A stretch of DNA of 64,000 nt from an uncultured Poribacteria bacterium (GTDB lineage: Bacteria > Poribacteria > WGA-4E > WGA-3G): positions 4,000,001 to 4,064,000 of the forward strand of contig OX638351.1 in assembly GCA_951813565.1 (NCBI GenBank). The letters run 5' to 3'. The first letter of the stretch is position 1. Each line of letters begins with the position of its first letter. The position numbers and the translations under genes are program-made. Below, in pieces: positions 13,108-14,391 of the stretch. The notes beneath the pieces were generated by a model. That model saw only the letters and a program-made list of their open reading frames with translations. It had not been told where the DNA came from and ran no database searches.

Positions 13108-13136
13108 TTGACAAAAAAGACGAACCCCGTTAAAAT
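13108..13136 (+). promoter_or_regulatory. near-consensus sigma70 promoter
   Basis: TTGACA (13108-13113), 17-nt spacer, TAAAAT (13131-13136). Confidence 0.75.
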
Positions 13137-13176
13137 TGCGGGAAATCCTCAAGCCCTAATACAGAGGGTAAATTAT

Positions 13177-13736
13177 CAAGTGTTTCGTTCAAAACCCCGT
13201 CCTTTAGGTCGGGGATGTCCAACGGCTCACAAGTGCGGGGTATCACGAAATGCCCAACGAAAGATTAGCGTCAGACTACATCGTCAATCATGCAGGTAGG
13301 TGGAGAGCGTCTATATCATGCCAGTCGAATGTGAACTGGAACACGTGAGCGGGTTGATATGCAGCACATATCTGCGATATGCGTTACCAAAGTCGCTATA
13401 GCGAACTCTCAAAAGGAGCGAGTAGACATATTGCATAAAAGACCCCCAAGAGAAGTGAGTCATCTCTTGTTGTGTTGGGGTGCCTGGTAGAAAGGGCAGA
13501 AATGAACTGTTTCAAGTGAAACAGTGCCACTTCACAAAAAAGAATCTTGCCATCTAAAGCAGGTGAAAATCTGCAATAGATGAATGGGCGGGGCATCGTC
13601 CAGTGCGGTAAGTGATGGAAGACGAACAAATGCTTTGCGAAAGCAATGCTGGCGTTCGCATTCACTGTTGATAGCAGAATTTACCCAGTGCAGAGGACCT
13701 AAGAATCCCCCTGCTTTAGCTGGGGGAGTATGTCAA
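13177..13736 (+). mobile_element. non-autonomous IS200/IS605-family element (no tnpA or tnpB)
   Basis: Left end follows TTAT (13173-13176) and has a subterminal hairpin AAAA-CCCCGTCCTTTAGGTCGGGG (13191-13214). Right end is GAAT-CCCCCTGCTTTAGCTGGGGG-AGTATG-TCAA (13703-13736), the GAAT guide/TCAA cleavage pair known from IS608. No TSD, as expected for this family. Confidence 0.8.
13233..13587 (+). ncRNA. group II intron 5' fragment (domains I-III, IIB/chloroplast-like class); RT ORF and DV-DVI absent
   Basis: Begins GTGCG. Ordered blocks AAATGCCCAAC, AGCGTCAGAC, GTAGGTG, GTGAACTGGAACACGTGAG and TAAAAGAC match IIB introns as recalled (not searched). DIII-like hairpin GCCATCTAAAGCAGGTGAAAATCTGCAATAGATGAATGG. 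An EBS1-like loop is complementary to the upstream exon. Confidence 0.75.
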
Positions 13737-13756
13737 AAATGTATAGCATTAGAAAG
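13586..13756 (+). ncRNA. TnpB omegaRNA (reRNA)-like scaffold plus predicted guide (13737-~13756)
   Basis: 5' hairpin GGGCG-GGGCAT-CGTCC, whose loop GGCAT (13592-13596) can pseudoknot with ATGTC (13730-13734) next to TCAA. Internal hairpin TGCTTTGCGAAAGCA and the RE hairpin are also present. Confidence 0.65.
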
Positions 13757-13764
13757 GAAAACTT

Positions 13765-14391
13765 ATGTTACAAACACCCCCAGAATCCGCTGTGATTCTC
13801 TTTGATGGAAAAGATTTAAGCAACTGGACAGGTCGTGACGGTGGCGAACCGAAATGGAAAGTTGAAGGTGACGCTATGATTGTTGAGCCACGCACCGGCG
13901 ACATATCAAGCAAGGAAACTTTCACGGATCATTTCCTACACGTTGAATTCATGTGTCCTGATATGCCCGAAGCAAGTGGACAGGCAAAAGGTAATAGTGG
14001 CGTTTTCCTCCAAGGCAGATATGAAATTCAGGTCTTGGATTCTTACGGTATTGAAGTGCCTGGCAAGGGCGATTGCGGCGCAATTTACAATCAATTTGCA
14101 GCACTTGTAAATGCTTGTTTACCCCCACTTCATTGGCAGACTTATGATGTTATCTTTCGTGCGCCTCGGTTTAACGATGCAGGTGAAATGACTGAAAACG
14201 TCAGAGTGACGGCACTACAGAATGGATTGGTAATCCTCAATAATGTGCAGTTGCCCGGCACTACAGCTGGTGGTGCTGATTCTGAGATTGCCAAACCGGG
14301 ACCGCTACGTTTACAGGACCACGGCAATTTAGTTCAGTATCGAAACATTTGGGCAGTACCACTTCCGCTTGAAGGATCGGATCAATATTAG
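13765..14391 (+). CDS. DUF1080 / 3-keto-disaccharide hydrolase family protein
   Basis: LFDGKDLSNW, GNSGVFLQGRYEIQVLDS and LRLQDHGNLVQYRNIW. Confidence 0.9.
   Translation: MLQTPPESAVILFDGKDLSNWTGRDGGEPKWKVEGDAMIVEPRTGDISSKETFTDHFLHVEFMCPDMPEASGQAKGNSGVFLQGRYEIQVLDSYGIEVPGKGDCGAIYNQFAALVNACLPPLHWQTYDVIFRAPRFNDAGEMTENVRVTALQNGLVILNNVQLPGTTAGGADSEIAKPGPLRLQDHGNLVQYRNIWAVPLPLEGSDQY

What the first reader, a model, noticed from the sequence alone, without database searches (positions are those of the whole stretch)
13177..13736. Protein-free chimeric element: IS605 left end + group II intron domains I-III + TnpB omegaRNA-like right end
Seen: IS200/IS605 ends (TTAT|...AAAA+hairpin; GAAT+hairpin...TCAA) enclose no credible ORF. 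56 nt inside, a GTGCG-initiated group II-like ribozyme runs through a DIII-like hairpin ending at ~13587. It joins, over a shared GG, the first stem-loop of an omegaRNA-like scaffold. No DV/DVI, RT, tnpA or tnpB is present. Known: described IStrons pair IS605/IS607 elements with group I introns, and trans-spliced group II introns are commonly broken in domain IV. Inference: both RNA modules end on structural boundaries, which a random deletion need not produce. It may therefore be a selected composite ncRNA, such as a half-ribozyme completed in trans by a DV-DVI RNA that processes or regulates the guide RNA, or a group II analogue of an IStron. The simpler alternative is an intron that homed into an IS, followed by one deletion.
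Basis: partly seen in the sequence, partly recalled or inferred. Interest (0 to 1): 0.88.

Follow-up and report, generated by a model that had tools for sequence, protein, structure and literature searches.

The report
Gene-less transposon carrying oversized guide RNA
This 560-base stretch is a protein-free jumping element of a sponge symbiont that carries one long folded RNA: a guide-RNA scaffold for a TnpB nuclease made elsewhere in the genome, fused to a large conserved RNA domain of unknown kind that is not a group II intron.

Summary
The element (13177-13736) is real. It has IS200/IS605 ends, sits after TTAT, ends in TCAA and has no conserved ORF. It is multi-copy in this Candidatus Poribacteria genome and its relatives.

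The last ~150 nt are homologous to the 3' end and right end of the resident 386-390-aa TnpB elements, so they are an omegaRNA scaffold.

The 5' ~300 nt are not a group II intron. No Rfam family matched at E<=10, GUGYG is not conserved, and the genome has no DV/DVI or maturase hit.

This 5' part is a separate, strongly covarying RNA domain. A shorter version of it sits in a second protein-free family with different ends, a different target motif and the omegaRNA of a different TnpB. A covarying helix locks it to the 5' edge of the omegaRNA.

It was found in 2 of 22 genera sampled. Insertions lie mostly just upstream of same-strand genes. A related genome's CRISPR array holds a perfect spacer against it.

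Verdict: a known kind (PATE / stand-alone omegaRNA) with a new, unexplained RNA domain.

The parts
13108..13136 (+). Host promoter-like site (TTGACA, 17 nt, TAAAAT; 11 of 12) lying 41 nt upstream of the insertion. It would transcribe the element and the downstream gene together.
   Evidence: No promoter-like site was found inside the element.
13173..13176 (+). TTAT target motif (the likely TAM), just outside the left end.
   Evidence: 5 of 5 TnpB-A elements have the same motif.
13177..13736 (+). The whole non-autonomous IS200/IS605 (PATE-type) element, called family 1 here.
13195..13214 (+). Left-end subterminal hairpin (CCCCG...CGGGG) with an outer stem. It is the presumed TnpA recognition structure.
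   Evidence: Covarying pairs, helix 1. Shared with TnpB elements.
13233..13524 (+). Conserved 5' RNA domain made of a string of covarying hairpins:
- 13238-13255
- 13257-13284
- 13301-13313
- 13321-13339
- 13354-13375
- a family-1-specific branched insert at about 13376-13440
- 13446-13469
- 13482-13497, with the conserved loop GGUAGAAAG
- 13507-13524
   Evidence: No Rfam match.
13470..13537 (+). Closing helix. UUGUG..GGGGU (13470-13481) pairs with GCCAC..CACAA (13526-13537). It brackets the last two hairpins and ties the 5' domain to the 5' edge of the omegaRNA unit.
   Evidence: helix 11 and helix 6 (pairs CG:10/UA:6/UG:1 and CG:9/UA:8). The cross-family comparison was read.
13521..13736 (+). 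OmegaRNA unit. Profile homology to the 3' end of TnpB-A elements runs from about 13585 to 13736. A module-less fragment in a relative (L029) starts at the equivalent of about 13521.
   Evidence: Covarying helices 15-19.
13707..13726 (+). Right-end hairpin (CCCCC...GGGGG). It is preceded by GAAT and followed by the cleavage motif TCAA (13733-13736).
   Evidence: It is 92-95% identical to the right ends of 4 TnpB-A elements.
13737..13756 (+). Predicted guide: the flank read through from the scaffold. It overlaps the 5' UTR of the ORF starting at 13765. This is inferred, not shown.
   Evidence: Inference from how TnpB omegaRNAs work (passages of PMC10691335). ORF.
13325..13364 (-). Protospacer matched 40 of 40 by spacer 10 of a CRISPR array in a related genome (G023).
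   Evidence: Cas genes.

Best explanation
The element is a palindrome-associated (PATE-type), protein-free derivative of the IS200/IS605 family. Its whole interior is one long structured RNA read from the + strand.

The 3' ~150-215 nt are the guide-RNA (omegaRNA) scaffold of the resident 386-390-aa TnpB lineage ('TnpB-A'). It ends at the right end, so the flanking DNA supplies the guide.

The 5' ~300 nt are a separate, conserved RNA domain. It is unknown to Rfam and is base-paired to the 5' edge of the scaffold.

Shown:
- the anatomy;
- the copy number;
- the homology of both ends and of the 3' part to TnpB-A elements;
- the covariation;
- the reuse of the same 5' domain in a second PATE family built on a different TnpB, omegaRNA and target motif.

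Inferred:
- A Y1 TnpA made elsewhere moves it as single-stranded DNA into TTAT sites.
- It has no promoter of its own and is transcribed from host promoters, because it sits in 5' UTRs in the sense direction.
- TnpB-A made elsewhere loads the RNA and cuts empty TTAT+flank sites, so the copy is restored by recombination.

For the 5' domain I commit to a cis-acting accessory role on the omegaRNA: folding, protection from RNases, or better competition for TnpB. I give that about 40-45%. The rest is split between self-processing, an effect on the downstream host mRNA, and no function.
For: Ends and target:
- TTAT|...TCAA| with subterminal hairpins.
- The same left end, right end and TTAT in 5 of 5 TnpB-A elements.
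- Left-end and right-end similarity to 12 other loci, mostly tnpB elements.

Mobility:
- 3 full copies and 1 truncated copy in this genome at 85-86% identity.
- Present in 9 of 36 same-genus genomes and 0 of 24 genomes of 7 other genera.
- 33 stretches in genome contigs, all in Candidatus Poribacteria records.
- At least 23 near-identical copies in G031.
- G031 also has 5 tnpA genes directly beside TnpB-A orthologues.

No protein.

OmegaRNA:
- A profile of 13500-13736 hits 4 TnpB-A 3' ends at E 1.4e-7 to 7.8e-6, and a fifth at 0.03.
- Without the right end (13500-13700), those ends are still the best non-self hits genome-wide, at E 0.05-0.8.
- The hairpin GGGCG/CGUCC corresponds to GGUUG/CAACC with the same loop.

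Second family:
- 8 copies plus 1 deleted variant in this genome.
- Its 3' ~120 nt are 87-94% identical to the ends of about 29 TnpB-B genes.
- It has a different left end, the target TTTAA/TTTAG and the end TATGAC, but the same 5' domain motifs.

Structure:
- Family 1, full length: 96 pairs, 96.2% of cells paired against 87.6% in shuffles. 42 pairs changed on both sides against 14.4 +/- 2.8 (0 of 500 shuffles reach this); slid controls gave 8-13.
- Second family, 5' domain, 17 sequences from two genera: 46 pairs, 96.0% against 88.9%. 18 pairs against 8.4 +/- 1.9; slid controls 1-6.
- G.U cells outnumber A.C cells 133 to 10 and 71 to 3, so the + strand is the one that folds.

Context:
- 40 of 57 unique sites have a same-strand ORF of at least 100 aa starting within 200 nt after the right end. 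Only 6 of 57 have a divergent ORF before the left end.
- Sense promoter-like sites scoring at least 10 of 12 lie within 120 nt upstream at 10 of 57 sites, against 3 of 57 antisense and 1.9 expected from shuffles.
- This copy has an 11 of 12 promoter-like site.

In this genome every ORF-free copy of either omegaRNA carries the 5' domain.

Contigs from RNA libraries of 3 studies hold the element almost end to end.

PATEs encoding omegaRNAs, and stand-alone omegaRNAs acting in trans, are described in print (passages of PMC10055086, and PMC10691335).
Against: - No experiment or read-level data show that TnpB binds this RNA, or where the RNA starts and ends. The RNA evidence is assembled contigs only, which can contain DNA and cannot give strand or ends.
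- Outside the right-end hairpin the similarity to TnpB-A omegaRNA is weak (E 0.05-0.8). The true partner could be another TnpB.
- 4 of the 9 other genomes with family 1 (G009, G010, G020, G023) showed no TnpB more than 64% identical to TnpB-A. At least 3 genomes with close TnpB-A (G024, G030, G036) showed no element.
- The sense bias could partly reflect the strand bias of IS200/IS605 insertion combined with gene orientation. I did not control for that.
- The role given to the 5' domain is inference only.
- Two alternative pairings for the closing-helix strands exist and were not resolved.
Confidence: 0.6

Rival explanations
1. One reading: the 5' part is group II intron domains I-III, a half-ribozyme completed in trans by a DV-DVI RNA, or the relic of an intron that homed into an IS and then lost its 3' part.
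For: GTGCG at 13233-13237 matches the group II 5' consensus in this copy. The region is large and highly structured.
Against: - No group II model of Rfam 15 matched at E<=10 in this copy or in two divergent members, and none at gathering score in the whole window.
- RF00029 (DV/DVI) gave no hit over cut-off in the 5.4-Mb genome.
- The GIIM maturase domain gave 0 hits.
- GUGYG is not conserved (GUGCA, GUGCU, GUGAU, GUCCG) and lies 56 nt inside the element.
- No longer parent was found in any locus.
Confidence: 0.03
2. It is an ORF-less IStron: a group I self-splicing intron fused to an IS605 element and its omegaRNA. Splicing would remove the element from host transcripts.
For: - The architecture is the same as in described IStrons: left end, then a structured RNA, then the omegaRNA and right end (passages of 10.1101/2023.11.20.567912; PMC4227781).
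- ORF-less IStrons and a PATE with IStron ends are reported there.
- The sense orientation in transcribed 5' UTRs fits.
Against: - IStron ribozymes match Rfam's group I model. Here RF00028 gave nothing at E<=10 in the element, and none of its 7 weak genome hits lies in a copy.
- The boundary nucleotides do not fit. Family 1 ends in A and the second family in C, so there is no terminal G. The second family follows A or G, not U.
- IStrons are reported only from Firmicutes and Fusobacteria (abstract of PMC4227781).
Confidence: 0.03
3. The 5' domain is a new self-processing RNA, unrelated to group I or II introns. It would be a ribozyme or nuclease-recruiting fold that releases the omegaRNA, or frees the downstream host mRNA from the 400-570-nt insertion.
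For: - It has a ribozyme-like pattern: invariant junction sequences, variable hairpin tips and a pseudoknot-like closing helix.
- It was retained while the ends and the omegaRNA were swapped.
- It sits in 5' UTRs in the sense direction.
- Only domain-bearing ORF-free copies have multiplied in this genome.
Against: - No known self-cleaving family matched.
- RNA-library contigs span the domain and scaffold as one piece: a 550-nt contig in X3 and a 470-nt contig in X1 that runs 81 nt into a flank.
- The only element-free joint seen comes from a diverged relative at depth 3.8 and is most simply an empty site.
Confidence: 0.1
4. The 5' part has no function of its own. It is a hitch-hiking remnant, for example scrambled old coding or intergenic sequence, that happens to fold.
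For: Its sequence has no match outside these elements, and no function is demonstrated.
Against: - Covariation is far above the shuffled and slid controls in two families.
- It is conserved across two genera and across a change of ends, target motif and omegaRNA.
- G.U greatly outnumbers A.C.
- No coding remnant was found.
Confidence: 0.07

Closest known systems
PATE-like protein-free IS200/IS605 elements that encode omegaRNAs (Geobacillus stearothermophilus; Meers et al., PMC10055086, passages read)
   Same: - IS200/IS605 left and right ends, no ORF, multi-copy.
- An omegaRNA at the right end that must be served in trans by a TnpB from another element.
- Ends shared with autonomous or TnpB-only relatives.
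   Different: Here about 215-355 nt of extra, strongly covarying RNA precede the scaffold and are base-paired to it. The same extra domain is shared by two PATE families with different TnpB partners. I saw no such domain described in the passages read.
Stand-alone omegaRNAs of OMEGA systems (as summarised in PMC10691335, passage read)
   Same: Mobilised guide-RNA loci that lack an effector and a transposase, found in genomes that also hold effector loci. They are reported to work in trans.
   Different: Same difference as above. In addition there is a strong sense-strand placement just upstream of host genes (40 of 57 sites).
IStrons: group I intron + IS605/IS607 + TnpB omegaRNA (PMC4227781; 10.1101/2023.11.20.567912)
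   Same: A three-part layout: transposon ends, a large structured RNA at the 5' side and an omegaRNA at the 3' side. ORF-less derivatives exist.
   Different: The 5' RNA is not a group I intron by covariance model or by splice-site nucleotides. The phylum is different. No evidence of splicing was seen.
Large omegaRNAs of IscB/IsrB (Rfam HEARO, RF02033)
   Same: A large multi-helix guide-RNA scaffold carried by an IS200/IS605 element.
   Different: There the guide is at the 5' end and the partner is IscB/IsrB. The genome's single IscB has its own HEARO-like RNA (56 bits). None of the 5 HEARO hits at E<=10 lies in a copy of this element.

Membership tests
IS200/IS605 non-autonomous element (PATE) | Inserts 3' of a short conserved motif without target duplication; ends are not inverted repeats | tested here: met
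   TTAT precedes the window copy and sits at, or 1-4 nt inside, the extrapolated boundary of 31 of 31 other distinct copies: exactly at it in 16. The right flanks are unrelated to each other.
IS200/IS605 non-autonomous element (PATE) | Subterminal hairpins at both ends, shared with transposase- or TnpB-bearing relatives | tested here: met
   Hairpins at 13195-13214 and 13707-13726. The same ends occur in 5 of 5 TnpB-A elements. Pairs covary (helix 1).
IS200/IS605 non-autonomous element (PATE) | No protein-coding gene; a Y1 transposase is available in trans | tested here: met
   No conserved ORF. The genome has 10 Y1_Tnp hits. That TnpA actually acts on these ends was not testable.
TnpB omegaRNA | Scaffold homologous to the 3' end of a tnpB element, same strand, ending at the right end | tested here: met
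   nhmmer E 1.4e-7 to 7.8e-6 to 4 TnpB-A ends with the right end included, and E 0.05-0.8 without it. There is a compensatory hairpin. The second family is 87-94% identical to TnpB-B ends.
TnpB omegaRNA | Bound by TnpB and guides cleavage of TAM + guide targets | not testable with these tools
   Needs RIP-seq and interference assays.
Group II intron (domains I-III) | Match to Rfam group-II-D1D4 models or Intron_gpII | tested here: not met
   No such hit at E<=10 in 3 members, and none at gathering score in the window.
Group II intron (domains I-III) | Conserved 5' GUGYG at the intron boundary | tested here: not met
   It lies 56 nt inside the element and varies: GUGCA, GUGCU, GUGAU, GUCCG.
Group II intron (domains I-III) | DV/DVI and an intron-encoded protein somewhere in the genome | tested here: not met
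   RF00029 best hit 15.1 bits against a cut-off of 40. GIIM gave 0 hits. The genome is one contig, 95% complete.
Group I intron / IStron | Match to Rfam Intron_gpI, which described IStron ribozymes do match | tested here: not met
Group I intron / IStron | U before the 5' splice site and a terminal G | tested here: not met
   Family 1: U, ending in A. Second family: A or G, ending in C.
IscB/IsrB omegaRNA (HEARO) | Match to RF02033 | tested here: not met

The most novel reading that the evidence does not exclude
The 5' domain is a new class of functional RNA that has teamed up with TnpB guide RNAs. It would be a self-processing or TnpB-modulating fold that lets promoter-less, protein-less transposons live inside host 5' UTRs. 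That would be an IStron-like three-way partnership built on a ribozyme-like RNA unrelated to group I or II introns, and exchangeable between omegaRNA types.
Probability: 0.12. Interest if true: 0.85.

Novelty: new variant of a known kind. Interest (0 to 1): 0.58.

Why it matters
Protein-free omegaRNA transposons are already known. This one shows that a guide-RNA scaffold can acquire a large, independently conserved RNA domain.

That domain was kept while the transposon ends, the target motif and the guide scaffold were all exchanged. This argues that it helps the parasite-of-a-parasite to be transcribed, loaded or tolerated.

It gives a compact, testable case for:
- how RNA parts are added to RNA-guided nucleases, which bears on TnpB engineering;
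- how gene-less elements exploit host promoters;
- how hosts respond, given a type I-D-like CRISPR array that holds a perfect spacer against it.

It is also a candidate new Rfam family: more than 40 distinct sequences, with strong covariation.

Tried and rejected
- Rfam. Gathering scan of the whole window gave 0 hits. Permissive scans of three divergent members gave only scattered E>0.4 hits. These included HgcC on the end hairpins (E 1.6 and 2.6), snoRNAs and a CRISPR repeat, with no family in common.
- Genome-wide group I, group II DV/DVI, HEARO and GIIM searches found nothing in any copy.
- tRNA-like fold: ARAGORN found none.
- Coding remnant: tblastn with four TnpB proteins gave E>=0.7. 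The 89-aa antisense ORF is not conserved.
- Longer parents: no ORF-bearing version in 6 loci, and no TnpB within 1.5 kb of 23 new loci.
- Metagenome pattern scan. Of 116 stretches, only 6 are family members by nhmmer. The rest are chance matches to a 19-nt degenerate motif.
- Internal promoter: none found.
- Earlier notes by place and by sequence: nothing.
- RNA contigs:
  - The lack of cover at 13187-13227 is due to divergence of the left end in the copies that were laid.
  - The 13152->13737 joint (depth 3.8, 23 other letters, right side 8 differences in 75) cannot distinguish a relative's empty site from splicing.
  - X10 holds only the flanks.
  - Depths are per contig and are not used as expression levels.
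- Structure alternatives left open:
  - ACCCC/GGGGU against GGGGU/GCCAC in family 1.
  - GCGUG/CGCGU, GGC/GCU and AAAGUUG/CGACAUU in the second family.
  - A long-range GAAUCUUGC/GCAGAAUU pairing without covariation.
- Replichore test of orientation from the 13 copies in this genome: no clean pattern, so not pursued.
- The covariance model R1 covers only the 5' half of the domain, with 13 pairs. MAFFT misaligns one helix between the families.
Full report
**What is there**

The window lies at 4,000,001-4,064,000 of a single-contig 5.43-Mb genome. Its relatives in public records are titled Candidatus Poribacteria.

- TTAT at 13173-13176, with the element starting at C13177.
- A left-end hairpin CCCCG...CGGGG at 13195-13214, preceded by CAAAA.
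- GTGCG at 13233-13237.
- GAAT plus the hairpin CCCCC...GGGGG at 13703-13726.
- TCAA at 13733-13736.

No conserved ORF exists. The longest ORF (89 aa, minus strand) has internal stops or frameshifts in 11 of 12 representative copies. tblastn with four resident TnpB proteins gave nothing better than E 0.7.

**It is a mobile, multi-copy element**

- This genome holds 3 full copies and 1 truncated copy at 85-86% identity, at different sites.
- With a 486-nt query it was found in 9 of 36 other genomes of the genus and in 0 of 24 genomes of seven other genera of the order.
- A 27-nt degenerate pattern found 33 stretches in genome contigs, all in Poribacteria records. About 25 of them are in one assembly.
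- 31 further distinct copies were extracted. TTAT sits exactly at my extrapolated boundary in 16 of them and 1-4 nt inside it in the other 15 (alignment).
- All copies are 541-573 nt long. None has a longer, gene-bearing interior.
- The window copy and two copies in other genomes (L059, L062) share both flanks, so they are one old insertion.

So the junction between the two RNA parts is not a single-copy accident.

**The right part is a TnpB guide-RNA scaffold**

The genome has 51 hits to the TnpB zinc-ribbon domain, 10 to the Y1 transposase and one IscB.

Five TnpB-only elements of 386-418 aa ('TnpB-A') have the same TTAT|left end and ...GTCAA| right end as the element. Four of their right ends are 92-95% identical to 13701-13740.

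A DNA profile of 13500-13736, built from 32 copies, hits four TnpB-A 3' ends at E 1.4e-7 to 7.8e-6. The alignments start at profile position 87, which is about 13585. With the right end cut off, the same ends are still the best non-self hits in the genome, at E 0.05-0.8.

In the pairwise alignment the hairpin GGGCG-GGGCAU-CGUCC of the element corresponds to GGUUG-GGGCGU-CAACC at the end of the tnpB-A reading frame.

**The left part is not a group II intron**

- Rfam 15 gave no hit at gathering score in the 64-kb window.
- It gave no group II, group I, HEARO or ribozyme hit at E<=10 in this copy or in two divergent members.
- Genome-wide, RF00029 (DV/DVI) reached 15.1 bits at one unrelated place against a cut-off of 40. 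RF00028 reached 16.2 bits at best, and none of its 7 hits lies in a copy.
- The group II maturase domain GIIM gave 0 hits.
- GUGCG is 56 nt inside the element. In other copies it reads GUGCA, GUGCU, GUGAU or GUCCG, and its last base belongs to a covarying hairpin.
- The described IStron ribozymes do match Rfam's group I model (passage). This RNA does not.
- The boundary nucleotides do not fit group I splicing. Family 1 ends in A. The second family follows A or G and ends in C.

**What the left part is: a separate, reused RNA domain**

The left-end similarity led to loci L008 and L009, which hold a second protein-free family of ~410 nt. This genome has 8 copies plus one deleted variant.

The second family differs from family 1 in several ways:
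- It inserts after TTTAA/TTTAG and ends in TATGAC.
- Its left end is that of the tnpA+tnpB 'TnpB-B' (375 aa) elements.
- Its last ~120 nt are 87-94% identical to the 3' ends of about 29 TnpB-B genes.

Between those parts it carries a shorter version (~215 nt) of the same 5' domain as family 1. The helices come in the same order and the junction sequences are shared.

One copy is chimeric, with a family-1 left end on a second-family body.

In this genome every ORF-free copy of either omegaRNA carries the domain. The other omegaRNA-B copies all sit beside a tnpB, whole or truncated.

A covariance model of the 5' half of the domain found it in 24 of 151 genomes of the phylum:
- 15 of 37 genomes in the window's genus (not counting the window's own genome);
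- 8 of 57 in a second genus of the same family;
- 0 of 56 in the 20 other genera.

None of 23 new loci has a TnpB within 1.5 kb. A degenerate-motif scan of metagenome contigs added only 6 members among 116 stretches.

**Structure**

For 12 representative family-1 elements, using a structure of 96 pairs:
- 96.2% of cells form standard pairs, against 87.6 +/- 0.5% in shuffles.
- 42 pairs changed on both sides, against 14.4 +/- 2.8. None of 500 shuffles reaches either value.
- Sliding the partners by 1-3 columns gives 8-13 such pairs.

For 17 second-family domains from two genera:
- 46 pairs, 96.0% against 88.9%.
- 18 pairs changed on both sides, against 8.4 +/- 1.9; slid controls gave 1-6.

The tool warns that related sequences can beat shuffles without any structure. 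The slid controls, which keep relatedness, are the stronger control here.

G.U cells outnumber A.C cells 133 to 10 and 71 to 3. The folded strand is therefore the + strand, the sense of tnpB and the omegaRNA.

The most informative helix is the closing helix. In the second family YCGC-GYGGCGU pairs with ACGACRU-(U)-GCGR. Two of its pairs show clean covariation: CG:10/UA:6/UG:1 and CG:9/UA:8. In family 1 the equivalent is UUGUG..GGGGU with GCCAC..CACAA (13470-13481 with 13526-13537), and one member reads UAGUG/CACUA.

This helix brackets the hairpin with the invariant loop GGUAGRAAG and the next hairpin. Its 3' strand lies in sequence shared with the tnpB-B 3' region (CCACGACA). In family 1 that strand lies in a part that also occurs in a domain-less omegaRNA fragment of a relative (L029).

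The domain is thus interlocked with the 5' edge of the guide scaffold. That is my main reason to think the two act as one RNA. Some alternative pairings remain open.

**Context and expression**

- Of 57 unique insertion sites from both families, 40 have a same-strand ORF of at least 100 aa starting within 200 nt after the right end. Only 6 have a divergent ORF starting within 200 nt before the left end.
- Boundary finding in that script required a target-like motif, so it says nothing about target choice.
- Sense promoter-like sites scoring at least 10 of 12 lie within 120 nt upstream of the left end at 10 of 57 sites. The antisense count is 3 of 57, and mononucleotide shuffles give 1.9.
- The window copy has TTGACA-17-TAAAAT at 13108-13136 and no promoter-like site inside.
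- I infer that these promoter-less elements are transcribed with the host gene they precede, and that transcribed copies are the ones a TnpB can protect.
- A strand bias of insertion relative to replication could add to the orientation bias. I recall this property of IS200/IS605 from memory and did not control for it.
- Assembled contigs from RNA libraries of three studies hold the element. One is a 550-nt contig spanning almost the whole element. Another is a 470-nt contig that runs 81 nt into another copy's flank.
- Contigs cannot show strand, ends or level, and DNA can be present in such libraries.
- One low-depth contig joins the two flanks without the element. Its flanks differ from the window's, so it is most simply a relative's empty site.

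**Partners**

G031, where at least 23 near-identical copies indicate a recent burst, has five tnpA genes directly beside TnpB-A orthologues of 86-88% identity. In the window's genome the TnpB-A elements lack tnpA, and its copies are older (85-86% identity).

The match is not perfect:
- G009, G010, G020 and G023 hold family-1 members, mostly divergent ones, but no TnpB more than 64% identical to TnpB-A.
- G024, G030 and G036 hold close TnpB-A but showed no element.

**Host response**

A 42-nt perfect match in G023 turned out to be a CRISPR spacer. The array has 74 repeats and 73 spacers. It lies next to genes for Csc2, a DEAD-box helicase, Cas6 and a Cas4-Cas1 fusion. From memory, that gene set is type I-D.

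- Spacer 10 matches window 13325-13364 at 40 of 40, and the other family-1 copies at 38-39 of 40.
- Spacers 12 and 55 match loci of a 378-aa TnpB lineage at 90-93%.
- The base triplet next to the protospacer reads GTG on the spacer-sense strand. This fits the GTN motif I recall for type I-D, but I did not test it.
- G023's own single copy (L022) differs in that stretch, and G023 gave 0 Y1 transposase hits.

**Comparison with what is known, and verdict**

Protein-free PATE-like IS200/IS605 elements that encode omegaRNAs served in trans are in print (passages of PMC10055086). So are stand-alone mobilised omegaRNAs (passage of PMC10691335).

Earlier notes of this scan describe several such elements. 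One of them has 'a conserved, undescribed RNA domain at the front of the guide RNA' (unchecked).

A full-text search for Poribacteria together with IS200/TnpB terms listed no paper holding 'Poribacteria' among the 12 shown. I did not search further, so I make no claim about print beyond that.

The element is therefore a member of a known kind. What is new is the large 5' domain:
- its conservation;
- its reuse with two different TnpB/omegaRNA/target systems;
- its pairing to the scaffold.

Its function is not shown. I favour a cis accessory role on the omegaRNA (about 40-45%) over self-processing (about 10%), an effect on the host mRNA, or no function.

Noticed in passing
L034 / L276-L277 (G023:C1:3087497-3092983); protospacer at window 13325-13364: A 74-repeat CRISPR array lies next to genes for Csc2, a DEAD helicase, Cas6 and a Cas4-Cas1 fusion. 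Spacer 10 matches the element's 5' domain 40 of 40. Spacers 12 and 55 match a 378-aa TnpB lineage at 90-93%. This looks like host immunity aimed at IS200/IS605 elements.
   Followed up: partly
L029:1493-1670 (G023:C1, about 4449110-4449290): An omegaRNA-like 3' part plus right end of family 1, without the left end or the 5' domain. It sits directly after the end of an ORF, following TTAT. It could be a solo guide-RNA fragment or a remnant.
   Followed up: no
G000:C1:2994597-2996920 (L004, L009): Two neighbouring copies lie in a locally duplicated region with identical left flank and left end. One is a family-1 body truncated at element position ~415 and followed by GATTGCGATGACGGC-type short repeats. 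The other is a second-family body with a family-1 left end, i.e. a chimera.
   Followed up: partly
window 13150-13760 vs L059 and L062: The same insertion site, with both flanks alignable at ~86%, occurs in two other Poribacteria genomes. The insertion is therefore old and has been retained through speciation.
   Followed up: partly
G000:C1:2829564-2830624: The genome's single IscB (519-aa open frame) has a HEARO-like RNA just upstream. It scores 56 bits, below Rfam's gathering score of 83.
   Followed up: no
L259:1790-1915 and L275 (second-family copies): Insertions of 80-125 nt sit inside the omegaRNA part. In L259 the insertion is rich in CCAGTTAC-type repeats.
   Followed up: no
window 13183-13214 and 13592-13749: Weak Rfam matches to HgcC (E 1.6 and 2.6, 13-14 bits) fall on the left-end and right-end hairpins. 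They are far below the gathering score.
   Followed up: no
G000, about 25 tnpB-B genes (e.g. 229687, 186099): The 11-nt loop motif YGGTAGRAAGR of the 5' domain also occurs on the antisense strand at the start of the zinc-ribbon region of TnpB-B genes. It is probably one coincidence multiplied by copy number.
   Followed up: no
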